A stretch of DNA of 64,000 nt from a virus (lineage: Duplodnaviria; Caudoviricetes): the IMG/VR virus record IMGVR_UViG_3300032017_000001, positions 21,152 to 85,151 of that record; one strand, 5' to 3'. Positions 3,643 through 48,235 of the stretch are shown here, in pieces (positions within the stretch are counted from its first letter, which is position 1; each line of letters opens with the position of its first letter). The position numbers and the translations under genes were made by a program. The notes beneath the pieces are model-generated. The model ran no database searches and was not told where the DNA came from. It worked only from the letters and a program-made list of their open reading frames with translations.

Positions 3643-3884
3643 CGCACGTGACCGAGTCCAACGGCCTGCCGCGAAATCTCATTGCCGCCGCCCTTCGTAA
3701 ACGTGCCGAGAACGGGGGCCAACATCTGCATCACCGGGATTGCATCCACAACCTGCCGCCCGATGAGCAGGTCGCAATGCGCGGCAAGACCGTGGAGTGG
3801 TGGACGCGGGTGATAGGCCCGTTGCCCGAGCAGATCACACCCGATCAGTGGGAGACTGACCCGCCCACTCGGCGGCCGGAGTGA
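3639..3884 (+). CDS. Hypothetical protein
   Basis: GTGA coupling at both ends. Confidence 0.55.
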   Translation: MTHVTESNGLPRNLIAAALRKRAENGGQHLHHRDCIHNLPPDEQVAMRGKTVEWWTRVIGPLPEQITPDQWETDPPTRRPE

Positions 3885-4918
3885 ACGAGCCCGTGACCAA
3901 CCATGCCCTCGTCCCGCGTCAGCCGGACGCCACCCCCGCCGTCTACGACGCTGCGACGCTCGCCGTCCTCGCCGCGATGGAGGAAGCAGCCGAAAAGCAC
4001 CTCGACGCCATCCGCCCCCACAACACCAAACGCAGCTACGCCAACGACTGGGCGTTGTGGGCAGAGTTCCACGGCTGGCTCGCCGAACGGACCGGGCAGG
4101 CGTTGCCGCTGACCGCCGTCACGAAGGGCACGCTCGTCGGGTTCGTCGTCTGGCTCGACACCATCAAGCTCGCCGCGCCCAACAGCATCGACCGCCGCAT
4201 CACCGGCGTCACCGTCACCGCCCGGAATGAACACGGGGTCGAGGTGCCGAAGGCTGCGACGGTCGCCGCGCGGCAGGCGCTCAAGCCGATGAAGAACGAC
4301 CCCGAACGCATGGCGCGCGGCCGGGGGAAGGCCGCAGCCGCAACCCCCGAACAACTGCGCCAGATGAACGCCGCTGTCGCCGACGGACTCACCGGCCTGC
4401 GCGACCGCGCCCTCTGGCTCATGGCCTTCGCCATCGCCGGACGCTCCGCCGAGGTCGCCGCCCTCCGCGCCGACACCATCGTCCACGTCAGCCAAGGACT
4501 CGAAGTCCACGTCCCCGCCGTCAAAGGCCGCCCACCCCGTGACGTCGTCGTCCACTACGGCCGCAACCCCGACACCTGCCCTGTCCGCGCCTGGCTCACC
4601 TGGCGCGCCGCCGCAGGCATCACCACCGGCCCCGCCTTCCTGCCCATCACCGCCCACGGCCGCCTCGGCGACCGCGCCCTCTCACCGGAAGCCGTCCGAG
4701 AGATCATCGCCCGCAACGCCGAACGCGCCGGCCTCTCCGTCCGCCTCACCGGCCACTCCATGCGAGCCGGATTCATCACCACCTCTCGACGCGCAGGAAA
4801 GCGAGAGGAGAAGATCCGCGAACAGTCCGGCCACGCCGAGAACAGCCCCGCCTTCTGGGGCTACATCCGCGAAGCCGACAAGTGGACCGACGCAGCATCG
4901 GAGGACATCGGACTCTGA
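3881..4918 (+). CDS. Cre-like tyrosine recombinase/resolvase (second recombinase)
   Basis: RDRALWL...GRSAEV (Arg I), GHSMRAG (HxxR), SGH, FWGY catalytic set intact; N-terminal SAM-like domain. Confidence 0.9.
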   Translation: MNEPVTNHALVPRQPDATPAVYDAATLAVLAAMEEAAEKHLDAIRPHNTKRSYANDWALWAEFHGWLAERTGQALPLTAVTKGTLVGFVVWLDTIKLAAPNSIDRRITGVTVTARNEHGVEVPKAATVAARQALKPMKNDPERMARGRGKAAAATPEQLRQMNAAVADGLTGLRDRALWLMAFAIAGRSAEVAALRADTIVHVSQGLEVHVPAVKGRPPRDVVVHYGRNPDTCPVRAWLTWRAAAGITTGPAFLPITAHGRLGDRALSPEAVREIIARNAERAGLSVRLTGHSMRAGFITTSRRAGKREEKIREQSGHAENSPAFWGYIREADKWTDAASEDIGL

Positions 4919-7920: not shown

Positions 7921-9213
7921 TCAAATACGGTTTGGGAGACGGCTGGGAGATCGTTTTTTACGGGAAGCCTTCAGTGGGGGATACGGGCCGAACTCGCGGC
8001 GGTCCACGACGACCCTCAACGAGTCCTCCCACAGTCGCTGGAGGTACTCGGCGATCGCCAACTCCATCGCCAGCGTCACATGCGAGTACGTGCCCTCGAC
8101 GCCCTGGAGCACATGCCCCATCCGCGCCTCGACAGCCACCCTAGGATGATTCCCCTCGTCCAGCCAGACCTTGTGCGAGTGCCGCAGCCCGTGCGGCGTC
8201 AACCCTTCCACCCCCAGTACCGGCCGGAGCCCTCCGCGGGCCTTCGCGCCCCGCACCACACCGCGCGACGCCCGGCCCGACACCATCGGCTGCCACGTCT
8301 CGGCGTACCAGTCACCGCCCCGCAGCAGCCGGCCGCCCTTCGGTGCGGTGAACACCCACTCCCCCTCAGGCCGCGATTCCAGCAGCTCCCGCAGCAGGTC
8401 GGCGAGGAACGGCGGCAGGATTAGCCCGCGGCCCGAGTCGTACTTGTTGCCGATCTCTGTGAACTGGCCGTCGATGTACTGGGACTGCTGCACCGAGTGA
8501 AGCCGCGCTCCCTCGCCGGCGTCCTTCAGCGCCAACTGGTCGCGGTGCACGCCGGCCAGCTCCCCGATCCGCAGGCCCGTGTAGGCGGAGGCGAGGACGA
8601 TCGCGTACTCGTTCAGCCCACGCATCTCGCGCGCGTTGCGGGCGACGAGCAGCACCTGGCGGGGGGTGGCGATGGTTCGTTCGTCCTTCGGCTTGGGCTT
8701 GTATCGGCCGCGACGCCCGGACTTCCTCGCCGCCACTGGGTTGTCACCACGGAGCTTCTCTGCGACCGCGTCGTCGAGCATGGTGCGGAAGACGCTCATG
8801 ACGTTGTCGGCGTAGTTCTTCGACAGACGCTGACGCAGCCTCTTTTCCCATGCGGCGATGCCGGTGGGGGACAGGTCGCCGACGGCCGTCTCGCCCCACT
8901 CGGGCAGGATCTGGTTCTTCAGGCGGAGTCGGTACTCCTTCTCGGACAGCGGCCCGACGTCGATGGACGGCAGCCACTTCTCCGCCCACTCCTCGACGGT
9001 GATCCGCCCGTCGCGGGGGTTGATGAACTGTTTGCGCCGCACGTCGACCTCGAGGCCGTGCGCGTACTGCTCGGCGGCCCGCTCCGTGTAGAACGGCTGC
9101 CCATGCTCGTCCTTGCTGACTGACCCCCACTTGCCGTTGGGGAGCTTGTACCGGCCGCGGTACCGCCACTTCTTTGCGCGCTTGTCGTAGGTGCGTCTTT
9201 CCGCATGCGCCAT
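7921..9213 (-). CDS. int: Phage integrase, tyrosine recombinase
   Basis: N-terminal arm-binding region, YTGLRIGEL, HGLRHSH, RMGH, YSH. Confidence 0.95.
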   Translation of the reverse strand: MAHAERRTYDKRAKKWRYRGRYKLPNGKWGSVSKDEHGQPFYTERAAEQYAHGLEVDVRRKQFINPRDGRITVEEWAEKWLPSIDVGPLSEKEYRLRLKNQILPEWGETAVGDLSPTGIAAWEKRLRQRLSKNYADNVMSVFRTMLDDAVAEKLRGDNPVAARKSGRRGRYKPKPKDERTIATPRQVLLVARNAREMRGLNEYAIVLASAYTGLRIGELAGVHRDQLALKDAGEGARLHSVQQSQYIDGQFTEIGNKYDSGRGLILPPFLADLLRELLESRPEGEWVFTAPKGGRLLRGGDWYAETWQPMVSGRASRGVVRGAKARGGLRPVLGVEGLTPHGLRHSHKVWLDEGNHPRVAVEARMGHVLQGVEGTYSHVTLAMELAIAEYLQRLWEDSLRVVVDRREFGPYPPLKASRKKRSPSRLPNRI

Positions 9214-38787: not shown

Positions 38788-39396
38788 TCAACGTGCACCC
38801 CGGGACATCTGCTCCGCGCGCGCTCCCGAGACACCGAGGACTTCGCCAACCTCGCGCCACGATCGGCCTTCTGCCTTCAGCTCCAGGACTGCTTCCTGCC
38901 GCACCTGGCGGAAGTCCTGCTTGAGGCGCGCCTGGAGCCGTTCAATCTCCCGGTACTGCTCTACGAGATCGGGCATGGCCGTGACGGCCCTCATGACGTC
39001 ACGCCGCCTCTCGTCGATGTGCGGGTGCCGCGAGTGAGCCATCTGGGCGAGCGATACTCGGGGCGCCGGCACCGTCCTCACCCTCCGAACCTTCGGGCTG
39101 GCTTTCCTGAGGCTGACCTTTGGTCGAAGCCACGGCTGCCCCTCGACCGCCCACTTGATGAGCTTCACCGGGTCGAGTCGGAATGTGAACCACTCCCCAT
39201 GTGACCGCAGTCGGGTGAAGTTGCGGTGCAACTGGGTCTCCAGCTCGTGCCCGCCTGGAGTCGTCCAGAGGATGGCCAGCGGTACTGGCGACATCCGTTG
39301 AATCTCGGCGAAGCGCTTGGTCAAGTTGGTCGTGCGACCGATCTTTACCGTGTTGCTGCCAGGCGTCCCGAGGACGTAGACGACCTCTTCGGGCAT
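38788..39396 (-). CDS. GIY-YIG (T5orf172-like) nuclease domain with C-terminal HTH
   Basis: VYVLG...VKIGRTTNL.KRF...E..LH..F...R..GEWF; RSWREVGEVLGVSGARAEQM. Confidence 0.8.
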   Translation of the reverse strand: MPEEVVYVLGTPGSNTVKIGRTTNLTKRFAEIQRMSPVPLAILWTTPGGHELETQLHRNFTRLRSHGEWFTFRLDPVKLIKWAVEGQPWLRPKVSLRKASPKVRRVRTVPAPRVSLAQMAHSRHPHIDERRRDVMRAVTAMPDLVEQYREIERLQARLKQDFRQVRQEAVLELKAEGRSWREVGEVLGVSGARAEQMSRGAR

Positions 39397-39469
39397 TCGT
39401 TCTCCTTCCGCGCGACAGGCCCGTCGCTGTTCGGCGGGCCTGTCAGACTCTAGGGCTGGTGCCTTGCCG

Positions 39470-39745
39470 TCAGACCTCGGTCGTGATGAACGGAGCCGGC
39501 AGCTCAGGCAGGTCGACGTCGAAGACTTGGGCGAGGAGGTAGCGGGCGACGGTGTCGTGCTCGAGTTCGCTACGGCCCGGAGGCATGGCGAGCAGCAGGT
39601 CACCGTTCTTCCGCTGGACGACCGCGCCGAAGAAGTCCCGGTCGGGGATCGAGCTGTCGATGATCTCGGCGCCCGTCTCGGCGAGCAGGTCGTCGAGCGG
39701 GGTGTCGAGCAAGTGGTTGGGGGAGAGGGGAAGCGCTACAGTCAT
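39470..39745 (-). CDS. Hypothetical protein divergent from GntR
   Basis: ATG 39745; protein-like. Confidence 0.65.
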   Translation of the reverse strand: MTVALPLSPNHLLDTPLDDLLAETGAEIIDSSIPDRDFFGAVVQRKNGDLLLAMPPGRSELEHDTVARYLLAQVFDVDLPELPAPFITTEV

Positions 39746-39906
39746 GAGCGGACTCCAATCTCTGCAGGATTGAGTTGCTGTTGGCGGTGGCGACCCGCCG
39801 CTTATTTGGCCGGACGGTGGCGACCGTCCGGCCATTTGCGTGCTGAGGGCGTGCAAGACCCTGCCGTGATGTGCTCACTGTCACAGCGCGGCCACGCCAA
39901 CGTATC

Positions 39907-39998
39907 GCTCTAGAGCAATCGACGCCAGTCTTCTTGCAGGAATCCCGGCAAGGGCTCATTGACCAGCAGCGATGTAGAGCGGGTAGCGTTGCTCTAGA
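39907..39998. promoter_or_regulatory. GCTCTAGAGC palindromic operators upstream of GntR gene
   Basis: Perfect copy 39907-39916, half/degenerate copies 39974-39980 and 39989-39998. Confidence 0.6.
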
Positions 39999-40021
39999 TG
40001 AATCCGTCCCAAGGAGAGCCC

Positions 40022-40777
40022 GTGTCACGCAAGCCCGGCGAGCCGCACAAGTACCGGGAGATCGCCGACGACCTGCGTAGGCGAATCAATGCCGGGGAGT
40101 TCGGCGAGAAGCGCAAGCTCCCGTCCGAGCGCGACCTCCGCGCACAGTACGACGTCTCACAGATGACCGTGCGGCAGGCGCTCGGTGTCCTGCGGGACGA
40201 AGGCCTGATCGAATCCCGCGTCGGCTCCGGCTGGTACGTCGCAGAGTGGCGTCCCATCGTCCGCAACGCGCTGCAGCGGCTCTCTGCCGCTCAGTGGGGC
40301 GAAGGCCGATCCATGTGGGACGTCGATATCGATGACCGCCGCCTTGAGGCGCGCGACGTGCAGATCGAGCTGATCGACTGCCCGGCCGACGTTGCCCGCG
40401 CCCTGGACCTCGAAGAGGGCGAGCCGGTCTGGCGCCGGGACCGGCGCTACGTCGTCGACGGGGAAGTCGTCATGCGAGCGACGTCGTACATCCCAGACGG
40501 ACTCGCACGCGGTACGCGGATCACGCAGATCGACTCGGGGCCGGGCGGCACCTATGCCCGGCTTCGTGAAGCGGGGCACGGGCCGGTGCAGTTCCGCGAG
40601 CAGCTGCGGTGTCGACTCGCGACGCCAGCCGAGGTGGACGACCTACGCCTCGCTGCGGGTGCTCCCGTGGTGGAGCAGCACCGCTCGGCAATGCGCGCGG
40701 ACGGGTATGTCGTGGAAATCAACCGAATGGTTCTGGACGCGTCGAGATTCCTCTTCGTGTACGACTTCCCTGCCTGA
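40022..40777 (+). CDS. GntR/HutC-family regulator with UTRA domain (KorSA/TraR-like)
   Basis: YREIADDLRRRI..GE...KLPSERDL..YDVSQMTVRQAL; UTRA region. Confidence 0.9.
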   Translation: MSRKPGEPHKYREIADDLRRRINAGEFGEKRKLPSERDLRAQYDVSQMTVRQALGVLRDEGLIESRVGSGWYVAEWRPIVRNALQRLSAAQWGEGRSMWDVDIDDRRLEARDVQIELIDCPADVARALDLEEGEPVWRRDRRYVVDGEVVMRATSYIPDGLARGTRITQIDSGPGGTYARLREAGHGPVQFREQLRCRLATPAEVDDLRLAAGAPVVEQHRSAMRADGYVVEINRMVLDASRFLFVYDFPA

Positions 40778-40789
40778 CCTGCCGCTTCT

Positions 40790-40820
40790 GGCCCTCACCC
40801 CTTGGGGTGGGGGCCTTTTT
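40790..40820 (+). terminator. Rho-independent terminator
   Basis: ggccctcaccc-cttg-gggtgggggcc followed by TTTTT. Confidence 0.85.
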
Positions 40821-40843
40821 GGTGTCTCGTAATCCACCTTTCC

Positions 40844-40870
40844 GCTCTAGAGCTATTGATTGCTCTAGCG
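40844..40870. promoter_or_regulatory. GCTCTAGAGC operators upstream of transfer operon
   Basis: Perfect copy 40844-40853, degenerate attgctctagcg 40859-40870. Confidence 0.6.
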
Positions 40871-40922
40871 CACTCTGCTTCTATCTAGGTGTTCACCCCA
40901 GTCGACCGCAGGGGAGCACCTA

Positions 40923-41150
40923 GTGACACCTGTCTCCGTCGCCCCTCCGGGCGACTACCTGACCACCGGAGAGGTCGCCCGCCGCATAGGCGGCACCTCC
41001 CAGCACGTGCGGCAGCTCATCAAGTCAGGCCGGCTCGCGGCGATCGATATCGCCAAGGGAAACGGCCGGCCCCGCTTCCGAATCTCCGAGGCCGCGCTCG
41101 CCGACTTCCTCCGCGACGCGACCGTCACCGCCACGGAGGTGGCCTCATGA
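40923..41150 (+). CDS. Excisionase-like HTH protein
   Basis: YLTTGEVARRIG....VRQLIKSGRL.A...RFRISEAAL. Confidence 0.85.
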   Translation: MTPVSVAPPGDYLTTGEVARRIGGTSQHVRQLIKSGRLAAIDIAKGNGRPRFRISEAALADFLRDATVTATEVAS

Positions 41151-41413
41151 CCAGCACCACCGCCCCGACCGCCCCGCTTCCCTCCGCCGCCGCGCTGGCC
41201 CTGGCCCGCCTGGAGTCGGCGTTCCCGGTCATCCAGGCCGTCACCGTGTACGAGACGGCGGCGGTGCACCGCGCCCAGCTCGCCGCGCTCGCCGAGGCCG
41301 ACAAGCTGTCGGACCTCGACGCGGACTCCCTGGCCCACGCCGAAGACCTGGCCGCCGGCGCCCACGCCACCCTCGCCAACGCCGGCCGCCTCGACCTCAT
41401 CGGCGGTGCCTGA
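41147..41413 (+). CDS. Hypothetical protein
   Basis: ATGA coupling. Confidence 0.6.
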   Translation: MTSTTAPTAPLPSAAALALARLESAFPVIQAVTVYETAAVHRAQLAALAEADKLSDLDADSLAHAEDLAAGAHATLANAGRLDLIGGA

Positions 41414-41649
41414 TGGCCCGCCCGTCCCGCCGCGAGATGAACGAACTCGCCGCCGACCGCGAGAAGTGCGCCGCCCGCAGCGAACGGAACGCCCAGTCCG
41501 CCAAGGCCGCCGCCAACGACCCCACGCTCCCGGAGACCACCCGCAAGCAGGCCGCGGCCACCGTGCCGATCGCGCTGCGCCACGCGGCGGAGTACCGAGA
41601 GGAAGCCGCAGCCCTCCGCGAGGGCCGCATCCCGGGGGAGGACTGGTGA
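41413..41649 (+). CDS. Hypothetical protein
   Basis: TGATG coupling. Confidence 0.6.
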   Translation: MARPSRREMNELAADREKCAARSERNAQSAKAAANDPTLPETTRKQAAATVPIALRHAAEYREEAAALREGRIPGEDW

Positions 41650-41810
41650 GCGCCCGCGAGATCCTGGCTGACTTCCCGGCTGGTGGCCCGCGCGGCAGCT
41701 GGCCGGCGGAGGAGAAGGCCGCCGAGCTCACCGCCTCCGGCACCCCCGCCACCGTCCGCATGGACCTCGACTCCGACCGGTTCATCGTCGTCCCGGAGCG
41801 TGAGTCGTGA
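41646..41810 (+). CDS. Small hypothetical protein
   Basis: GTGA coupling. Confidence 0.55.
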   Translation: MSAREILADFPAGGPRGSWPAEEKAAELTASGTPATVRMDLDSDRFIVVPERES

Positions 41811-41929
41811 GCCCCGCCGAGCAGGGCGCCGCCGCGAAGGCCCTCGCCGCGCAGGCCCGCCAGCGGACCGAAGCCGCGAAGGCCGCCGCCGAGGCTGCCG
41901 AAGCAGCCCGACGAGCCCGGCAGCGCTAA
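41807..41929 (+). CDS. Ala-rich micro-ORF
   Basis: GTGA coupling. Confidence 0.45.
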   Translation: MSPAEQGAAAKALAAQARQRTEAAKAAAEAAEAARRARQR

Positions 41930-42031
41930 CCCCCTAGCCGCCGCGGGGTGGCGGATGTCCACGGCTCCCCTCCGTCCCGCCACCCCGCGGCCACCACCAC
42001 TTCCCACCGCACCCCTTGAAAGGGCACAGCC

Positions 42032-42271
42032 ATGTCTCCGTACCTGTTCTCCGCCGACCACGGCCGCACCGACCTGGGCGAGCGGTTCCGCACCTCGATC
42101 ACCGTCGCCGAGGCGCTGACCCTGTCGATCTCCGAGGTGTTCGACGAGTACGCCGACGCCCGCAAGTCCGGCGACCTGGCCCGTATGGCCGCCGTCCGCG
42201 ACTACGCCGCCCACCTCGACTCCGAACTCGCCGACGAGCTGGACGGCTTCGACTACCCGGCCGCCGCCTAA
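42032..42271 (+). CDS. Small acidic hypothetical protein
   Basis: ORF track; preceded by long hairpin. Confidence 0.6.
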   Translation: MSPYLFSADHGRTDLGERFRTSITVAEALTLSISEVFDEYADARKSGDLARMAAVRDYAAHLDSELADELDGFDYPAAA

Positions 42272-42359
42272 CCCCACAGGCCGCCGCCGCGCGATCCGCT
42301 ACCCCCCGTCTCACGCGGCGGCACCCCAACCCGCACCACCAACCGAGAGGAACCCCGAA

Positions 42360-42530
42360 ATGGCCTTCTTCAAGCGCGACATCAAGCCCGTCACCGTCGC
42401 CGGTCAGCCCCGCTTCAAGATCGAAGCCGACCCGTCCGCCATGGCGTTCAGCACGCCCGAGGAAGCCGAGAAGCAGCGGGATCTGCTCGACACCTTCAAG
42501 CCCCTGGACGACGGCCGCCGCGAGGACTGA
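42360..42530 (+). CDS. 56-aa cassette protein (MAFFKRD...)
   Basis: GAGAGG RBS, read manually (below ORF-track cutoff). Confidence 0.65.
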   Translation: MAFFKRDIKPVTVAGQPRFKIEADPSAMAFSTPEEAEKQRDLLDTFKPLDDGRRED

Positions 42531-42538
42531 CCCCACCA

Positions 42539-42585
42539 GCCCCGGCTAAGCCGCGACGGTGTCCGATCGACTCGGGCCCGGGGCA
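42539..42585 (+). ncRNA. tRNA-like intergenic element 1
   Basis: GCCCCGG/CCGGGGC-A acceptor-like stem; GTCCG-ATCGACT-CGGGC T-arm. Confidence 0.65.
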
Positions 42586-42626
42586 CTGCACCACCCACCT
42601 GACCACCAACCCGAGAGGAACCCGCC

Positions 42627-42830
42627 ATGGGCCTGTTCAGCCGCAAGTCGTCCGAGCCCCGCACGGCTACGACCCCCGCCACCCAGACCGACCAGTACCG
42701 CCTGAAGGCCACCGGCCGCCGGGTCACCGTCCTCGAGTACCTCAGCGGCGGTGACGTCCGTATCGCCATGGACAACGGCCACATCACACGGGACGACATC
42801 GTCAGCTCCCGCGACATCACCCCCGCCTGA
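42627..42830 (+). CDS. 67-aa cassette protein (MGLFSRK...)
   Basis: GAGAGG RBS; ORF track. Confidence 0.7.
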   Translation: MGLFSRKSSEPRTATTPATQTDQYRLKATGRRVTVLEYLSGGDVRIAMDNGHITRDDIVSSRDITPA

Positions 42831-42838
42831 CCCCTGCA

Positions 42839-42888
42839 GCCCCGGCATTCACGCCGTGAGGGCGCCGGATCGACTCCGGCCCGGGGCA
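42839..42888 (+). ncRNA. tRNA-like intergenic element 2
   Basis: GCCCCGG/CCGGGGC-A; GCCGG-ATCGACT-CCGGC. Confidence 0.65.
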
Positions 42889-42931
42889 CGCACCGCAGCC
42901 CACCTGATCACTCACCCGAGAGGACCAAATC

Positions 42932-43150
42932 ATGACCGAGCCCACCACCCCCGAGCCCGTCACCTACCACTGGATCGCCACCGTGCAGACCGGCCGGGGG
43001 CGGATCGAGACCAACGACGGTCCGGTCAGCGCGATCCCGGGCGTCCACACGCACACCTCCACGTACCAGGCCGTCCTCGCCAACCTCACCGAGAAGTACG
43101 GGACGGACTTCGGCCTCCTGTTCCTCGCCCTCGAGCCCGACCAGCTGTAG
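42932..43150 (+). CDS. 72-aa cassette protein
   Basis: GAGAGG RBS; ORF track. Confidence 0.7.
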   Translation: MTEPTTPEPVTYHWIATVQTGRGRIETNDGPVSAIPGVHTHTSTYQAVLANLTEKYGTDFGLLFLALEPDQL

Positions 43151-43157
43151 CCCGCCA

Positions 43158-43204
43158 GCCCCGGACCCGGCGTGACGCTGCCGGATCGACTCCGGCCCGG
43201 GGCA
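43158..43204 (+). ncRNA. tRNA-like intergenic element 3
   Basis: GCCCCGG/CCGGGGC-A; GCCGG-ATCGACT-CCGGC. Confidence 0.65.
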
Positions 43205-43244
43205 CGCACCGCCCACCCGAACCCCAACCCGAGAGGAGCCCGTC

Positions 43245-43436
43245 ATGGGCCTGTTCACCCGCAAGGTCTCCGAAGCCGCAACCGAGGCCGCCGACACCGT
43301 CGCGTCCGCCGCTATCCGCGCCGGCCGGAAGGTCGCCGGAGAGAAGGGTGCCGACGCCGCGAACGCGATGACCGGCCGCCGCTACGCCCGCTGCCCCGAG
43401 GGCTGCGCCAGCAGCGACCCCAACCACAGCCACTGA
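43245..43436 (+). CDS. 63-aa cassette protein (MGLFTRK..., C-terminal CPEGC..H.H)
   Basis: GAGAGG RBS; ORF track. Confidence 0.7.
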   Translation: MGLFTRKVSEAATEAADTVASAAIRAGRKVAGEKGADAANAMTGRRYARCPEGCASSDPNHSH

Positions 43437-43448
43437 CCAGAACACCCA

Positions 43449-43501
43449 GCCCCGGCCCGGCCGATCTCGGGTCTACGCCGCAAAGGCAGGCCGGGGCGCC
43501 A
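43449..43501 (+). ncRNA. Variant element 4 (same acceptor-like stem, ends GCCA)
   Basis: GCCCCGG 43449-55 / CCGGGGC 43491-97, then GCCA; different internal hairpins. Confidence 0.45.
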
Positions 43502-43542
43502 CCCCTGACCACCCCATCCGCACCGACCTAGGAGAGGTCGCA

Positions 43543-43755
43543 ATGCTCCGCATCGTCCTGTGGGCGCTCGCTGCCCTGTACCTGCTCGTCGTCGGCCTGA
43601 CCCCGGCCGCACTCGCCCCCATCACGCTCGCGTTCGCCGGTCTGGCCGCCGTGATCGCCGCCGTCCCGCCGTCCGTGCTGCTCCTCGCCGCCGCCGTCGT
43701 CTGGCTCAAGCGCAAGCCCGCCACCGCCAAGCCCGCCACCACGAGGGCCGCCTGA
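43543..43755 (+). CDS. Small membrane protein (Spd-like)
   Basis: Two TM helices, basic tail. Confidence 0.7.
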   Translation: MLRIVLWALAALYLLVVGLTPAALAPITLAFAGLAAVIAAVPPSVLLLAAAVVWLKRKPATAKPATTRAA

Positions 43756-43949
43756 TGGCCCGGCGCAACGAAGCCGACGCCGAGTGCGGCGCAGGCCGCA
43801 CCGACGACAACCGCGGCCCCAAGCCCACCCGCGCCTGGCAGCCGACCGCCCCCGGCGAGAACTGGTTCAACGGGATCACCCCCCAGCCGTCCGCCCGCCA
43901 GGGCGAATCCACCCGCCTGTACCGACGCGCCCGCGTCACCGCCAGCTAG
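43755..43949 (+). CDS. Small hypothetical protein
   Basis: TGATG coupling. Confidence 0.5.
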   Translation: MARRNEADAECGAGRTDDNRGPKPTRAWQPTAPGENWFNGITPQPSARQGESTRLYRRARVTAS

Positions 43950-43970
43950 CCCAGAGAGGAATCGATCCCG

Positions 43971-45113
43971 ATGGACTGGAACGAGCAGCGCCGCCTGGAC
44001 AAGGCCGCCGCCGCCGACCAGAAGCGCAAGGACGCCGACGCCGAGGCTGACCGCCGGGCCCGCGCCCGCGCCGCCGAAGACGAGCGGCGCCGCGCCAACC
44101 GGCAGGCGGACAAGGCGGAGGCGCGCGCCGAGAAGGTCCAGAAGCGCCGGGAGAAGCGCGAACGGCGCCGCGAACGCGCCCAGGCGTGGACGAAGAACAC
44201 CACCCCCGCAGTCGTCTACCGGCGCGGCACCCTCGCCCTGGTCATCGCGTCCGCGCTGGCGTCCCTGCCCGCGCAGATCATGCACTTCGTCTCGATCTCC
44301 GCCATGCTGCTGCCCCTGCCGTTCGCACTCGAAGGCGCGGCCTGGGTGATGGCCGCCGGCGTCGCCTACGCCGACGAGAAGCGACTCCCGGCCTGGGTGC
44401 GGTGGCTGCTGCGCGGACTGTGCCTCACCGCCGCCGGATACGCCGCCTCCATCAACTACCAGTACGGCGCGCACATCGACCCGGCCGTCGGGTACGGCCT
44501 CGCCGCGGTCACCCTGCTCGGGCCGCTGTTCTTCGAGGTGCGGCAGTGGGTGTCCACGCTCACGGTCGACGCCGGGGAGAAGAAGCGCCGGGCGGAGGAG
44601 AAGAAGCGGGCGAAGCACGAGAAGGCCCGCCGCGAGCACCACAAGGACGTCGTCCAGCTCGCGGAGCGTCTGGTGTCCGCCGCCCCGTATGGAGCGCTGG
44701 CCCTCGAGGACGCCTTCGTCGCCGCGTGGGAGATCTTCTACGGCACGTCAACCCCCGGCATGACCCCCGCGATGCACGCCCAGCAGCTCGCCTCACGGCA
44801 GTCCCTCGCCGCCGCGATGGATGAAGCGAACGGGGCGCCGATAAGCGCTCGTGGGCGTCTCCTTCAGATGCTCCACCCGGCGCCCTCAGTGCTCATCTCG
44901 CAGCCTGGATCATCGCAGGTCGCGAACCAAGTCCCCCCCACCCAGAAGAGGCCGTCTGAGGTGCCCTCGAACGGTACGCCCAGGGGGGCCCGCCCGAAGC
45001 CCGTTCCGCCCCGCCGCACGAAGGGCGACACCCCCCGCTTCCACACCGCGGCAAAGGTCGTCGCAGCCGACACCGCCCGCAAGCACGCCACCGTCAACGG
45101 CCACCACCACTGA
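43971..45113 (+). CDS. SpdB/DUF2637-like multi-TM spread protein with coiled coil
   Basis: Charged coiled coil, four TM helices (LPLPFALEGAAW), upstream of TraB. Confidence 0.7.
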   Translation: MDWNEQRRLDKAAAADQKRKDADAEADRRARARAAEDERRRANRQADKAEARAEKVQKRREKRERRRERAQAWTKNTTPAVVYRRGTLALVIASALASLPAQIMHFVSISAMLLPLPFALEGAAWVMAAGVAYADEKRLPAWVRWLLRGLCLTAAGYAASINYQYGAHIDPAVGYGLAAVTLLGPLFFEVRQWVSTLTVDAGEKKRRAEEKKRAKHEKARREHHKDVVQLAERLVSAAPYGALALEDAFVAAWEIFYGTSTPGMTPAMHAQQLASRQSLAAAMDEANGAPISARGRLLQMLHPAPSVLISQPGSSQVANQVPPTQKRPSEVPSNGTPRGARPKPVPPRRTKGDTPRFHTAAKVVAADTARKHATVNGHHH

Positions 45114-45130
45114 CCCTCGAAGGACACCCC

Positions 45131-47230
45131 GTGAGCATCGAGACGACCCCGTCCAGCAGCCCCGACCCGGAGTGGGAGAAACTGATCGCCGGCTACCTCT
45201 CCGGCCCGGAGAAGACTCCCGCCGCGCCCCGCCCGTCCGCCGTCGACCTGATGGGCGACACGCCTCTCACCCCCGCCTGGACGAAGACCCGCAGCGGCTG
45301 GAAGGGCCGCGCCGAGGTCGGCCGCGTCAACACCGTCCGCGCCTTCCGCAAGTGGCTGCGCCGACAGGCCACCGAGCACGGGCACGCCGCCCAGCTCTAC
45401 CGAGGTGCCGCCCGCATCACCGTGTGGATCCGCGGCGTCGAAGGCGTCGAGGTCGCGAAGGCCAAGCACGAAGCGCGCCGAGCGCACAAGGAGTACCGGC
45501 AGGCGCAGTGGGCCAACGGGAAGCGGCTCATGCCCGGCAGCGTCAAGGACAAGCTGTCCAGGGAGATGGACAAGGCCGCCGAAGACTCCGAGCGGGCCAT
45601 GAACAAGTACCGCAAGGCCCGCAAGGACGCCCGGACCCTGCAGTCCCTTCGTGCCGCCGCGGCCATCACCCCGCTCGCCGCCATCGAGGGCGCCGGCCTG
45701 TACATGGGCGGCGGCCCCGGCGGGCTCCTGGCCGCCGGCCTCACCCTCACCGGGCTCACCCTCATCGGCCGCCGCACCACCACGGGCGAACTGTGGTCCG
45801 ACCGCGACGCGAAGATCGGCGACGGGGACCGGATGACCGAGACCATGCTGAACCGCGTCTACCTGGACGCCAAGGTCATCGGCTCCGACGACGTACTGAA
45901 GCTGACCACCCCGTGCACCCTCACCGCAGACGGCAAAGCCTGGCAGGTCGTCTTCCAGTTGCCGTCCGGTATCCCCGCCAAGAAGGCGCTCGGTGCACGC
46001 GAAGGCATCGCCAACGGGTTCGGGGTGTCCGTGCAGCAGGTCCACCAAACCCGCGGTAACCGCGAGGACACCATCCACCTGCGGGTGTCGCTCAAGCTGC
46101 CGTTCTCGTCCAAGCCGAACCGCGGCCCGCTGCTCGACGCGGAGCAGGTCAACCTGTGGAAGCCCATCCGCATGGGCGTCAACCTGCGCGGCGAGGAAGT
46201 CGTCACCTCGTGGGTCGAGCGGTCCGGCCTGTTCGGCGGAGAGCCCGGCTCCGGCAAGTCCGCCGCGGCCAACGACCTCCTGCTCGCCGCCGCGCTCGAC
46301 CCGACCGTGCGCATGTACCTTGCCGACGGCAAGGCCGGCGCCGACATCACCCCGTTCGAACCGATCGCCACCATGTACGACACCGACGGCGACCCCGGCA
46401 AGCTCCTCGAGATCCTGCAGTACATGTGGGACGTCGAGATCAAGGAGCGGCGGGCCCTCGCCAAGGAGCACGGGTCGCGGAAGCTGACCGAGGCGATGGC
46501 CGCCGTCGACCCGCGGGTCTGCCTGGCCGTGCTCCTCGTCGACGAGTGGTCGTCCTACGGTGCCGCCGCCGACCAGAAGACCCGCCAGGAGATGGAGCGG
46601 CTGCTGCGGCTGATCGTCCAGCAGGGCCGGGCGCTCGGCATCATCAGCCTCGCCGCCACGCAGAAGCCCGACGGCGACTCGGTGCCCACGGGCATCCGCG
46701 ACATCCTGTCGATCCGCTGGGCGATGCGCTGCCTCACCCCGCAGGCCTCCGACACGATCCTCGGCCAGGGCTACGCCTCCGCCGGCCACAACGCCCAGGA
46801 CATCCTCAAGTCCCAGCGCGGTGTGGGCATCTACATGGACGGCGAAGGCGCCGAGCCGGAGCTGGTCCGCGGCGACTACTACGACGACGAGGAAGTCGCC
46901 GCCATCCTGGGGCGTGCCTACAACCTGCGGCAGGAGGCGGGCACGCTGCCGCTGGGCCCGCTCGACCGGCTGCGCGCCGCCGACACCGACGGGGCGGTCC
47001 TCGCCGACCTGCTCGCCATGTACGACGGCGTCGAGATGCTGCCCGCAGCCCGGGTCCTCGAGAGGCTCACCGAGGCCGGCCACACGGTCACTGCGGACCG
47101 GCTGGCCGTGCTGGTGCCGCGCACCGAGGACGAGAAGCGGCGGCAGGACATCGACGGCAGCCGGGTGTCCGTCTACCCGCTTACCGCGGTCCGCCGGGCC
47201 GTGCTCGACCGATACGGAATCACCGCCTGA
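45131..47230 (+). CDS. traB: TraB-like FtsK/SpoIIIE DNA translocase
   Basis: TM pair, GEPGSGKS Walker A, LLVDEW Walker B, QQGRALGI..ATQKP, short C-terminal wHTH-like domain. Confidence 0.85.
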   Translation: MSIETTPSSSPDPEWEKLIAGYLSGPEKTPAAPRPSAVDLMGDTPLTPAWTKTRSGWKGRAEVGRVNTVRAFRKWLRRQATEHGHAAQLYRGAARITVWIRGVEGVEVAKAKHEARRAHKEYRQAQWANGKRLMPGSVKDKLSREMDKAAEDSERAMNKYRKARKDARTLQSLRAAAAITPLAAIEGAGLYMGGGPGGLLAAGLTLTGLTLIGRRTTTGELWSDRDAKIGDGDRMTETMLNRVYLDAKVIGSDDVLKLTTPCTLTADGKAWQVVFQLPSGIPAKKALGAREGIANGFGVSVQQVHQTRGNREDTIHLRVSLKLPFSSKPNRGPLLDAEQVNLWKPIRMGVNLRGEEVVTSWVERSGLFGGEPGSGKSAAANDLLLAAALDPTVRMYLADGKAGADITPFEPIATMYDTDGDPGKLLEILQYMWDVEIKERRALAKEHGSRKLTEAMAAVDPRVCLAVLLVDEWSSYGAAADQKTRQEMERLLRLIVQQGRALGIISLAATQKPDGDSVPTGIRDILSIRWAMRCLTPQASDTILGQGYASAGHNAQDILKSQRGVGIYMDGEGAEPELVRGDYYDDEEVAAILGRAYNLRQEAGTLPLGPLDRLRAADTDGAVLADLLAMYDGVEMLPAARVLERLTEAGHTVTADRLAVLVPRTEDEKRRQDIDGSRVSVYPLTAVRRAVLDRYGITA

Positions 47231-47326
47231 CCCCGTCCAACCCCCGTCCAGTACACCGGTTTGAACCGGTATGCCCTCCGTCGGAACCCCGTCCCGGCCA
47301 CCGCAACCCCGTCCGGCCGGGACGGG
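47230..47326 (+). repeat. clt-like 8-bp direct repeats CCCCGTCC
   Basis: Copies at 47231, 47242, 47287, 47307; variant CCTCCGTC 47275; inverted GGACGGG 47320. Confidence 0.65.
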
Positions 47327-47432
47327 CCCACCACCCCCAAGACGGACCCAGTCGGGCCCTGACCAGCAGAAACACATCCCATGACGGGCGCGACGGCGAC
47401 CCTAAACCCGCCCAAACCGAACAGGAGACCTC

Positions 47433-47864
47433 ATGCCCGAGCCGATCGCACCGATGAGTGAGGAGGCCGCCAAGGAGGAAGCTGACCGCATCCTCGCCAC
47501 CGCCTTCCGCGACCCCGCCCCGCTTTCCGCCGTCGGCACCACCCCGCCCGTCCCGCAGCCCGGTCGGCCGCCGATGAGCCAGGGCGCCACCGATGCCAGC
47601 GTCCTCATGCTTGCCGGGGGAGCGAGCACCGCAATGGTCGGCGGGACCGCCGCCGTCCTGATGTACGTCTCCCAGTTCGCGGACCCCGTTGTCTGCGGCC
47701 TCGTCTTCGGCGCGCCGACCGCCCTCGTTCTCGCCCTCGCCCGCCTGGCCAAGCGCGCCCGGCCCGAGCCGGAAGTGCACCAGCACTTCCACGGCACCGT
47801 CACTCACCAGACCACCCACAGCCGCACCAACGGCGTGTGGGCCCGCACCAACAACCAGAAGTAG
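47433..47864 (+). CDS. SpdD-like membrane protein
   Basis: VGTTPPVPQPGRPPMSQGATDASVLML followed by two TM helices. Confidence 0.65.
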   Translation: MPEPIAPMSEEAAKEEADRILATAFRDPAPLSAVGTTPPVPQPGRPPMSQGATDASVLMLAGGASTAMVGGTAAVLMYVSQFADPVVCGLVFGAPTALVLALARLAKRARPEPEVHQHFHGTVTHQTTHSRTNGVWARTNNQK

Positions 47865-47873
47865 GAGACCGGC

Positions 47874-48014
47874 ATGGACGAGTGCATTCTGTGCGGCGCC
47901 CCCGGCGGCTACCCGTACTGCGGCCCCGCCTGTGAAGCCGCCGACAACCCCGACGAAGACGTCCCATCCTTCAGCGCCGCCGACTTCGGCCCGCTCGCCG
48001 AGAACCTCAACTGA
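47874..48014 (+). CDS. Small Cys-rich protein (CILC...C...C)
   Basis: AGGAG RBS; read manually. Confidence 0.5.
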   Translation: MDECILCGAPGGYPYCGPACEAADNPDEDVPSFSAADFGPLAENLN

Positions 48015-48029
48015 CCGGAAGGATCCGCA

Positions 48030-48235
48030 GTGGCCACCCGACAGATCACCTGCTTCGAAGCCGTGTGCGACCTGTGCGGCACCAGCGAGACCACCGCGAC
48101 CCGAAGGACGGATGGACGGTCACGCCAGACGGTCGGCTCGTCTGCGACACGGTCAACGACGAAGCCCACCGCACCGCCCACGAGGAAGCAGGCAAGACCA
48201 TCAGCGACTGCGCCATGACCGCGAGCTTCGCCTGA
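48030..48235 (+). pseudogene. Frameshifted paralog of 18595..18870
   Basis: Starts ITCFEAVCDLC; continues in another frame as GWTVTPDGRLVCD...DEAH to TGA 48235. Confidence 0.5.

What the first reader, a model, noticed from the sequence alone, without database searches (positions are those of the whole stretch)
39470..48235. Temperate phage carrying a Streptomyces conjugation/spreading module (KorSA-like GntR, Xis-like HTH, Spd-like proteins, TraB)
Seen: GntR-UTRA regulator, HTH protein, several TM proteins, a 699-aa FtsK/SpoIIIE ATPase with intact Walker motifs and an SpdD-like gene, embedded between early and late phage genes. The block has no Rep or integrase of its own and no visible att scars. 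Established: pSAM2-type AICEs and Streptomyces plasmids move dsDNA with a single FtsK-like TraB plus Spd proteins under GntR (KorSA/TraR) control. Inference: the excised circular phage, replicating with its own initiator and DnaB, could spread hypha to hypha without virions, a phage-AICE hybrid lifestyle. The Cre-like resolvase and CopG-like repressor elsewhere in the window would fit this.
Basis: partly seen in the sequence, partly recalled or inferred. Interest (0 to 1): 0.85.

Follow-up and report, generated by a model that had tools for sequence, protein, structure and literature searches.

The report
Conjugation module inside Streptomyces temperate phage
A complete 85-kb temperate Streptomyces phage carries an intact plasmid-style DNA-transfer cassette (repressor, membrane pore protein, TraB DNA pump and the DNA site the pump should recognise); the combination is already known from the plasmid-phages pZL12 and pFP4, but here it sits in an integrating phage lineage that has its own branch of TraB proteins.

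Summary
The window is the right three-quarters of a complete 85,151-bp siphovirus record. At 39.9-47.9 kb it carries a GntR/UTRA repressor, an excisionase-family HTH protein, a chain of small genes, a 2-TM protein, an SpdB2 homologue, a 699-aa TraB (42% identical over 95% to pSVH1 TraB, Walker A and B intact) and a conserved membrane protein.

Directly after the traB stop lies a clt-like array of four CCCCGTCC repeats plus a hairpin. It aligns position by position with the pSVH1 clt. In relatives the repeat word changes whenever the TraB C-terminus changes.

The cassette is not a recent AICE insertion. No flanking att repeats were found. It occupies the same slot in at least nine related phages and prophages, including one in S. 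azureus ATCC 14921. TraB dN/dS is 0.09-0.47. All phage-linked TraBs form one clade apart from the plasmid and AICE TraBs.

The concept is not new. pZL12 and pFP4 are published Streptomyces plasmid-phages with a transfer module in the same slot. New here are a pSVH1-type TraB-clt pair, an integrating lineage without ParAB, and a phage-associated TraB clade. Transfer itself is inferred, not shown. This scan had already noted the clt-like repeats on this same window.

The parts
39906..39917 (.). Palindromic candidate operator (T/C)GCTCTAGAGC(A) about 80 nt upstream of the GntR gene; a half-site GTTGCTCTAG abuts the ATG at 39988-39997
   Evidence: 7 strand-matches in the window against 1.7 expected, and all but one cluster around the GntR gene. 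A site in the same relative position occurs in the S. azureus prophage L010.
39998..40777 (+). GntR/HutC-type repressor (GntR HTH plus UTRA), TraR/KorA-like
   Evidence: Pfam PF00392 at 1.2e-22 and PF07702 at 2.2e-21. 29% identical to pSVH1 TraR, E 1e-20. 94% identical in the S. azureus prophage.
40843..40872 (.). Two further GCTCTAG(A/C)GC palindromes 18 bp apart, between the GntR and HTH genes
   Evidence: The same pair with the same 18-bp spacing is in L010 at 5393 and 5411.
40923..41150 (+). 75-aa HTH_17 / excisionase-family DNA-binding protein (candidate Pra- or Xis-like regulator)
   Evidence: PF12728 at 2.8e-8 and TIGR01764 at 30.4 bits, above its cut-off. Found paired with the GntR gene in L010, L016, G067 and pFP4.
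41147..43436 (+). Chain of about nine small, mostly translationally coupled soluble ORFs: 41147-41413, 41413-41649, about 41646-41810, about 41807-41929, 42032-42271, 42360-42530, 42627-42830, 42932-43150 and 43245-43436. Three 55-nt hairpin elements lie between them at 42532-42586, 42835-42889 and 43151-43205.
   Evidence: GC3 frame plot, repeats D1, D3 and D4, GAGAGGA ribosome-binding sites. Homologues of the 79-aa protein occur in L008, L009, L010 and L014. The N-termini of the 67-aa and 63-aa proteins resemble the start of pSVH1 Orf108.
43543..43755 (+). 70-aa protein with two transmembrane helices, conserved upstream of the SpdB2-like gene
   Evidence: Hydropathy. 45-71% identical in L006, L007, L009, L010 and L014.
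43971..45113 (+). SpdB2 homologue: charged coiled-coil N-terminus followed by 3-4 hydrophobic helices
   Evidence: 27% identical over nearly the full length to pSVH1 SpdB2 (E 1e-16) and 30% to pFP11 DUF2637 (E 3e-25). Sequence features. 80.6% nucleotide identity to plasmid CP075612.1.
45131..47230 (+). TraB, an FtsK/SpoIIIE-type dsDNA translocase with a pSVH1-like C-terminal recognition domain
   Evidence: PF01580. 42-43% identical over 95% to the TraBs of pSVH1 and pFP11. Walker A and B present. PDB FtsK match. 79-92% identical in related (pro)phages. dN/dS 0.09-0.47.
47231..47330 (+). clt-like site: CCCCGTCC at 47231, 47242, 47287 and 47307, a variant at 47275, the inverted repeat ACCGGTTTGAACCGGT, and a terminal hairpin CCCCGTCCGGCCGGGACGGG. 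A conserved CTGACCAGCAGAAACAC box follows at about 47358-47374.
   Evidence: 4 of the window's 14 copies fall within 84 bp. Positional alignment with the pSVH1 clt. The repeat word changes with the TraB C-terminus across 15 loci.
47433..47864 (+). 143-aa membrane protein (phrog_19266), the constant partner found downstream of the translocase
   Evidence: phrog_19266 at 4e-35. 56% identical to pZL12.70c, 48% to the pFP4 gene after its TraB, and 56% to the NZ_CP108705 gene. Present after TraB in all relatives.

Best explanation
This is a working Streptomyces-type dsDNA conjugation and spreading cassette that is a stable part of a temperate siphovirus genome.

Proposed mechanism, inferred by homology to pSVH1 and pIJ101:
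1. The GntR repressor binds the GCTCTAGAGC palindromes and keeps itself, the small HTH regulator and the downstream spd-traB operon off.
2. When repression is relieved and the phage genome is present as a circular, replicating dsDNA (after excision or after infection), TraB hexamers bind the CCCCGTCC repeats of the clt through their C-terminal winged-helix domain. They then pump the double-stranded phage genome across the hyphal envelope into a neighbouring mycelium.
3. SpdB2, the 2-TM protein, the 143-aa membrane protein and the small proteins move the genome across septal cross-walls within the recipient.

The phage would thus have a second, virion-independent route of transmission, after which it can integrate through its tyrosine integrase or enter lytic growth.

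Shown here: gene content, homology, synteny, conservation, purifying selection, and covariation of the clt with the TraB C-terminus. Inferred: regulation, timing and the transfer itself.
For: Homology and order TraR-SpdB2-TraB as in pSVH1 and pFP11. Walker motifs and an FtsK motor match.

The clt-like array starts at the traB stop codon and aligns column by column with the pSVH1 clt, with GACCCGGA replaced by CCCCGTCC. Across 15 TraB loci each C-terminal variant has its own 8-mer: CCCCGTCC, CCCGGACG, GACCCGGA, CCTGGACG, CCCTGTG(C/T) or ACCCTGCC. This matches the published rule that TraB recognises plasmid-specific 8-bp repeats in clt (PMC4447253).

The slot and gene order are the same in 5 IMG/VR phage genomes that also share portal (73-90%) and capsid (70-97%). 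They are also the same in prophages of S. azureus, S. thermocarboxydovorans, G067 and G294. TraB ORFs are intact, with dN/dS 0.09-0.47.

In the tree all phage-linked TraBs fall in one clade (SH-aLRT 100), apart from pSVH1, pFP11 and an AICE. No PLSDB plasmid has a TraB above 42% identity to this one.

The GntR operators are conserved in position and spacing in a second phage.

In pZL12, the module in the same slot (GntR, membrane protein, FtsK-like tra, 70c) is reported to be required for conjugal transfer (PMC3583192 citing Zhong 2010; anatomy).
Against: There is no functional or expression evidence.

Pfam does not detect DUF2637 in the SpdB2-like protein, and the NCBIfam plasmid_TraB model scores far below its cut-off.

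About 5 of 21 complete relatives with the same virion module show no recognisable translocase with my probes, so the module is dispensable for the phage.

One relative (G067) has an in-frame TAG in TraB.

An 85-kb genome is far larger than pSVH1-type plasmids. SCP2 and pZL12 show that larger replicons can transfer, but not with this TraB type.
Confidence: 0.68

Rival explanations
1. The cassette serves lytic growth only. TraB and the Spd proteins push replicating phage DNA through septal cross-walls into adjacent compartments of the infected mycelium, enlarging the infected biomass before lysis. They do not mediate mating-type transfer from lysogens to new hosts.
For: [quoted passage not shown] The module lies in the early/right arm, co-oriented with early genes. 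In pSVH1 the spd genes act in intramycelial spread.
Against: A dedicated Kor-type GntR repressor and a full clt are features of intermycelial transfer systems, and TraB alone suffices for primary transfer in pIJ101 and pSVH1. The two roles are not exclusive.
Confidence: 0.17
2. The cassette is a selfish passenger or relic: an AICE or plasmid fragment captured by recombination that is no longer used for phage transfer. It might be retained as a kil-kor addiction pair or for mobilising host DNA.
For: The translocase slot is highly mosaic. pSVH1-type, pZL12-type, pFP4-type and other P-loop ORFs replace each other behind nearly identical virion modules. The SpdB2-like gene is 80.6% identical at nucleotide level to a plasmid gene. 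GC3 of the cassette is 0.90-0.99, higher than in neighbouring genes. Some relatives lack the module.
Against: No att repeats flank it. ORFs are intact, dN/dS is below 0.5 and the clt is kept in register in all close relatives. The TraB clade is found with phage genes in 10 of 11 contexts examined and on none of 72,556 plasmids.
Confidence: 0.1
3. TraB acts as an FtsK-like segregation or dimer-resolution motor for the circular phage replicon. It would work with the Cre-like recombinase at 3881-4918, with the 8-bp repeats acting as KOPS-like loading sites.
For: TraB is an FtsK homologue. A second tyrosine recombinase, 41% identical to pZL12.36c, is present. The lineage lacks ParAB.
Against: Full-length homology, the SpdB2 neighbour, the GntR repressor and positional clt homology all point to pSVH1-type transfer. 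The recombinase gene lies 40 kb away and is not co-conserved with the TraB type.
Confidence: 0.05

Closest known systems
pSVH1 (S. venezuelae) transfer region traR-spdB3-spd79-spdB2-orf108-traB-clt (Reuther 2006; Vogelmann 2011; Thoma 2015, PMC4447253)
   Same: GntR repressor. SpdB2 homologue directly upstream of TraB. TraB 42% identical over 95% with the same C-terminal domain type. An array of 8-bp direct repeats plus hairpin starts at the traB stop codon and is alignable position by position. A conserved CTGACC(A/T)GC..AAACAC box follows.
   Different: The host replicon is an 85-kb tailed phage, not a 12.6-kb rolling-circle plasmid. The repeat word is CCCCGTCC, not GACCCGGA. The GntR gene is co-oriented and followed by an HTH_17 gene. 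Different small ORFs take the place of spdB3 and spd79. The gene downstream of traB belongs to phrog_19266, not spd198.
Streptomyces plasmid-phage pZL12 / phage ZL12 (GQ919031.1; Zhong et al. 2010 J Bacteriol 192:3747)
   Same: A temperate Streptomyces siphovirus genome with a GntR-controlled transfer slot in the order membrane protein, translocase, 70c-like protein. pZL12.70c is 56% identical to the 143-aa protein here, and the recombinase pZL12.36c is 41% identical to the Cre-like gene of this window. [quoted passage not shown]
   Different: pZL12's translocase (71c) has no BLAST similarity to this TraB. pZL12 is a ParAB plasmid prophage, whereas this phage has no ParA or ParB and carries a phage integrase. 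The virion modules are unrelated, although the plasmid NZ_CP108705.1 combines this phage's virion module with pZL12's tra and par modules.
Streptomyces plasmid-phage pFP4 (NC_017833.1; Chen et al. 2012 Plasmid 68:170)
   Same: Terminase, portal, capsid and tail genes together with GntR, a small HTH protein, DUF2637 (SpdB2), a 700-aa FtsK/SpoIIIE protein and a phrog_19266-like gene, all on one 41-kb replicon.
   Different: Its TraB is not detectably similar by BLAST to this one. It carries ParA and a prim-pol replicon, and it is half the size.
AICEs (pSAM2, SLP1, pMEA300; te Poele 2008, PMC2440964)
   Same: Integrase-mediated chromosomal residence combined with a GntR (KorSA-type) regulator, a single FtsK-like Tra protein and Spd proteins.
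   Different: AICEs are 9-24 kb, have RepSA, RepAM or prim-pol replication genes and no virion genes. This element is a complete phage whose tra block has no int, rep or att of its own.

Membership tests
Streptomyces TraB-type (FtsK-like) dsDNA conjugation system, pSVH1 type | FtsK/SpoIIIE translocase with intact Walker A and B | tested here: met
   PF01580 at 2.1e-8. GEPGSGKS at residue 370 and VLLVDE at 467. FtsK 2IUU match at 2.8e-5.
Streptomyces TraB-type (FtsK-like) dsDNA conjugation system, pSVH1 type | Full-length homology to an experimentally characterised TraB | tested here: met
   42.6% identity over residues 38-699 to pSVH1 TraB, E 1e-135 to 3e-144. The NCBIfam plasmid_TraB model NF041214 gives only 22 bits against a cut-off of 800, so this protein is not an equivalog of that particular model.
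Streptomyces TraB-type (FtsK-like) dsDNA conjugation system, pSVH1 type | clt: a cluster of 8-bp direct repeats next to traB, specific for the TraB C-terminus | tested here: met
   Four CCCCGTCC copies within 84 bp after the stop, against 14 copies in 64 kb. Positional alignment to the pSVH1 clt. Repeat word covaries with the C-terminus in 15 loci. Binding itself was not tested.
Streptomyces TraB-type (FtsK-like) dsDNA conjugation system, pSVH1 type | GntR-family Kor/TraR repressor | tested here: met
   GntR plus UTRA domains. 29% identical to pSVH1 TraR. Clustered palindromic candidate operators, conserved in a second phage.
Streptomyces TraB-type (FtsK-like) dsDNA conjugation system, pSVH1 type | SpdB2-type integral membrane spread protein | tested here: met
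   BLAST E 1e-16 to pSVH1 SpdB2 and 3e-25 to pFP11 DUF2637. Coiled-coil N-terminus plus 3-4 hydrophobic helices. The Pfam DUF2637 model itself did not hit.
Streptomyces TraB-type (FtsK-like) dsDNA conjugation system, pSVH1 type | Actual transfer and pock formation | not testable with these tools
   Requires mating assays.
AICE (actinomycete integrative and conjugative element) | Compact element bounded by att sites, with its own int/xis and a Rep (RepSA, RepAM or prim-pol) | tested here: not met
   The block has no int or rep and no flanking direct repeats. The integrase lies 31 kb away, next to the phage immunity region. The element is an 85-kb phage.
Plasmid-phage (pZL12 / pFP4 type, extrachromosomal prophage) | Virion genes plus a conjugative transfer module on one replicon | tested here: met
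   The slot is syntenic with pZL12 and pFP4.
Plasmid-phage (pZL12 / pFP4 type, extrachromosomal prophage) | Plasmid partition system (ParA/ParB) for extrachromosomal maintenance | tested here: not met
   PF13614 and PF02195 are absent from the 85-kb record, and PF13614 is absent from five relatives. One relative is an integrated provirus in S. azureus.

The most novel reading that the evidence does not exclude
A distinct clade of TraB translocases, each with a matching clt, has been maintained for a long time by integrating temperate Streptomyces phages that carry at least three unrelated packaging modules. These would be 'conjugative prophages', transmitted both as virions and as naked dsDNA through mycelial contact. 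The S. azureus ATCC 14921 member could be the phage component behind that strain's long-puzzling spontaneous pocks.
Probability: 0.45. Interest if true: 0.72.

Novelty: new variant of a known kind. Interest (0 to 1): 0.55.

Why it matters
If the cassette works, temperate Streptomyces phages have two transmission routes. One is receptor-dependent infection by virions. The other is receptor-independent, contact-dependent dsDNA transfer. That would change how host range, phage resistance and lysogen spread in soil mycelia should be modelled. It would also give prophages the chromosome-mobilising ability known for AICEs.

The concept has been shown for two plasmid-phages. The data here suggest it is widespread among integrated prophages and rests on a phage-associated TraB lineage. 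They also supply a directly testable TraB-clt pair (CCCCGTCC) and a candidate repressor operator (GCTCTAGAGC).

Tried and rejected
1. Recent AICE insertion. Rejected because no long flanking direct repeats were found (the best pair is 24 of 30 matches, 10.8 kb apart, at chance level in 70% GC DNA), the slot is the same in all relatives, and the block has no int or rep.
2. Decaying relic. Rejected because of intact ORFs, dN/dS below 0.5 and a clt conserved in register.
3. Extrachromosomal plasmid-prophage like pZL12. Not supported, because no ParA or ParB was found.
4. Searches of GenBank phages with TraB (tblastn) and with the 8.9-kb block (megablast) found nothing. Near-identical records may have been withheld by the tool.
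5. The pZL12 paper (PMC2897331) is not held and pFP4 is not mentioned in the library. Their experimental results are therefore cited second-hand or from my own knowledge.
7. The three large ORFs in the tra slot of NZ_CP108705.1 have no Pfam domain. They turned out to be pZL12.71c-73c homologues.
8. ARAGORN calls a tRNA-Ala at 41470-41549 (-) inside a high-GC3 ORF. Rfam finds no tRNA there, so I treat it as a false positive.
10. The treekit careful search did not finish. The tree cited is the quick IQ-TREE run, with G294 on a long branch.
Full report
WHAT THE WINDOW IS. The window is bases 21152-85151 of an 85,151-bp IMG/VR virus record that CheckV rates 100% complete. The 21 kb outside the window encode a classical siphovirus late operon: large terminase, portal, scaffold, major capsid, major tail protein, a 1979-aa tape measure and tail proteins. 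The window holds two tyrosine recombinases (one beside an XRE-type repressor), DNA methylases, a DnaB-like helicase, an IS110-type transposase, an RNA ligase and the block in question. GC is about 70% and all relatives are from Streptomyces.

THE OBSERVATION. I called genes by third-position GC. On the + strand the block reads as follows:
- a GntR+UTRA regulator (39998-40777);
- an HTH_17/excisionase-family protein (40923-41150);
- about nine small, largely translationally coupled soluble ORFs (41147-43436), interrupted by three 55-nt hairpin elements;
- a 70-aa protein with two TM helices (43543-43755);
- a 380-aa protein (43971-45113);
- a 699-aa FtsK/SpoIIIE protein (45131-47230);
- a 200-nt gap;
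- a 143-aa membrane protein (47433-47864).

The 699-aa protein has Walker A GEPGSGKS and Walker B VLLVDE and matches the FtsK motor structure. It is 42-43% identical over 95% of its length to the TraBs of pSVH1 and pFP11. The 380-aa protein is a full-length homologue of pSVH1 SpdB2 and the pFP11 DUF2637 protein (E 1e-16 and 3e-25). It has the charged coiled-coil N-terminus and hydrophobic core described for SpdB2. The GntR protein is 29% identical to pSVH1 TraR. The order regulator, SpdB2, TraB is that of pSVH1 and pFP11.

A CLT. CCCCGTCC occurs 14 times in the window (11.4 expected), but four copies lie within 84 bp starting at the base after the traB stop. The last copy forms a hairpin with its inverse. 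As a positive control, the same extraction on pSVH1 recovers the published GACCCGGA repeats in the same place. The 200-nt regions of the phage, four relatives and pSVH1 align column by column: stop codon, two repeats, an inverted repeat (CCGGTTTGAACCGG against CCGGATTGACCCGG), two or three more repeats, a hairpin, then a conserved CTGACC(A/T)GC..AAACAC box. The repeat word is exchanged throughout. Across 15 TraB loci, every C-terminal sequence type has its own word:
- W, L006, L007, L010, L014: CCCCGTCC;
- L016, G312: CCCGGACG;
- pSVH1, G246: GACCCGGA;
- pFP11, G245: CCTGGACG;
- L008, L009, G067, whose last 90 residues are unrelated: CCCTGTG(C/T);
- G294: ACCCTGCC.
This pattern is what the published finding predicts, namely that clt regions contain direct 8-bp repeats recognised by the cognate TraB (PMC4447253). 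It is the strongest in-silico sign that the phage genome itself is the substrate.

REGULATION. A palindrome, GCTCTAGAGC, occurs once about 80 nt upstream of the GntR gene and twice, 18 bp apart, between the GntR and HTH genes. That is 7 strand-matches in the window against 1.7 expected, and no shuffle reached 7. The S. azureus prophage, whose GntR protein is 94% identical, has the same three sites with the same spacing. By analogy with TraR, KorA and KorSA, the GntR protein probably represses itself and the HTH gene. Whether the HTH protein activates the spd-traB operon is my inference.

NOT A STRAY AICE. No long direct repeats bound the block and it has no int or rep. Five IMG/VR genomes of 62-77 kb carry TraB at 79-86% identity. 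All five also carry this phage's portal (73-90%) and capsid (70-97%). The order is the same in each: 2-TM protein, SpdB2-like, TraB, 143-aa protein, conserved right-arm genes, small terminase-like gene, TerL, portal. One of them is identical to a prophage in S. azureus ATCC 14921. S. thermocarboxydovorans has a TraB 92% identical, followed by a terminase and portal of different families. Streptomyces sp. NPDC006261 has a TraB 63% identical, with a third type of portal and terminase 7 kb away. G067 and G294 are further prophage contexts. TraB dN/dS is 0.09-0.18 for close pairs and at most 0.47 overall. In a quick maximum-likelihood tree of 36 TraBs, the ten phage-linked proteins all fall in one clade (SH-aLRT 100). 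A long branch separates that clade from pSVH1, pFP11, a plasmid-like contig and an AICE (midpoint root, G294 on a long branch). No PLSDB plasmid exceeds 42% identity to this TraB. In 401 Streptomyces species genomes only three have a match at 58% identity or more.

THE SLOT IS MOSAIC AND ACCESSORY. Two circular plasmids share this phage's virion genes; NZ_CP108705.1, the one fetched and compared, shows 65-92% identity. In the same slot NZ_CP108705.1 carries a different set of genes, which proved to be homologues of pZL12.71c-73c (88%, 67% and 59%), plus ParAB. Of 27 long IMG/VR relatives with the same portal, 8 have some TraB-like match, 9 have the 143-aa family and 8 have PF01580. About 5 of 21 complete ones give no signal. 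The 143-aa protein (phrog_19266) is the constant partner. It follows the translocase in pZL12 (70c, 56% identical), in pFP4 (48%) and in all relatives.

WHAT IS KNOWN. pZL12 (GQ919031.1, deposited as Streptomyces phage ZL12) and pFP4 (NC_017833.1) are published plasmid-phages. The records show virion genes plus a GntR gene, a membrane protein and an FtsK-like translocase. [quoted passage not shown] FtsK-like genes in virulent Streptomyces phages are reported without a transfer reading. What differs here:
- the translocase is a genuine pSVH1-type TraB with a recognisable clt;
- the lineage integrates and lacks ParAB;
- the TraBs form a phage-associated clade spread over several virion types.
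I found no paper in the library describing this, but the library is incomplete.

VERDICT. Observation confirmed. The main rival is use for intramycelial spread during lytic growth only. Novelty: a new variant of a known kind. Interest moderate (0.55). It is lifted by the covariation of clt with the TraB C-terminus and by the link to S. azureus. In that strain spontaneous pocks have been ascribed to pSA1.1 plus a lysogenic phage, and the genome paper reported no ftsK/spoIIIE-like gene (PMC4616171).

Noticed in passing
L015 (= L010), S. azureus ATCC 14921 NZ_DF968221.1 88872-110965: This strain's prophage carries the same cassette (TraB 80%, GntR 94%). The genome paper ascribes the strain's spontaneous pocks to pSA1.1 plus lysogenic phage SAt2, and says no spoIIIE/ftsK-like gene was annotated (PMC4616171). 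Whether this prophage is SAt2 is unknown.
   Followed up: partly
window 42532-42586, 42835-42889, 43151-43205: Three 55-nt hairpin elements (GCCCCGG ... GATCGACTC ... CCGGGGC), each followed by a conserved leader and ribosome-binding site, separate three small genes. Segments of 48-66 nt around 43155-43218 are 91-94% identical to intergenic DNA of four Streptomyces plasmids, among them pFP11 (H36, H39-H41). No Rfam family matches.
   Followed up: partly
window 43976-45107: The SpdB2-like gene is 80.6% identical at nucleotide level over its whole length to the 23-kb plasmid CP075612.1 (Streptomyces sp. JCM17656). That plasmid's TraB is only 31% identical to this one. This points to recent gene-level exchange between phage and plasmid.
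   Followed up: no
window 47358-47374; L011 (pSVH1) about 8290-8310: A box CTGACC(A/T)GC(A/G)(C/G)AAACAC downstream of the clt is conserved between pSVH1 and the phages, although their TraBs are only 42% identical. It may be a promoter or operator for the next gene, or part of the clt.
   Followed up: no
NZ_CP108705.1 (L004 and L005): This circular 88-kb Streptomyces plasmid is a mosaic. Its virion module is 65-92% identical to this phage's. Its tra genes are 59-88% identical to pZL12's (88% for the 71c translocase), it carries ParAB (identity to pZL12's not measured), and it carries a type III PKS gene.
   Followed up: yes
P0104 (Streptomyces sp. NPDC001268, 1063 aa): A member of the TraB clade carries a LAGLIDADG homing-endonuclease (intein-like) insertion.
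   Followed up: no
G067:C19:29740-31854: In this prophage-like context the TraB homologue (58% identical) has one in-frame TAG, which is a possible decaying copy.
   Followed up: no
window 38788-39603 (-): A T5orf172/MUG113-domain protein with a C-terminal HTH is encoded divergently from the GntR gene. Its function is unknown.
   Followed up: no
window 41470-41549 (-): ARAGORN predicts a tRNA-Ala(GGC) inside a high-GC3 coding ORF. The Rfam scan of the region finds no tRNA, so it is probably a false positive.
   Followed up: partly
window 3881-4918: The second, Cre-like tyrosine recombinase is 41% identical to pZL12.36c, 33% to the recombinase of NZ_CP108705.1 and 29% to that of pFP4. It is therefore the recombinase shared with the plasmid-prophage relatives, and may be a dimer resolvase.
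   Followed up: partly
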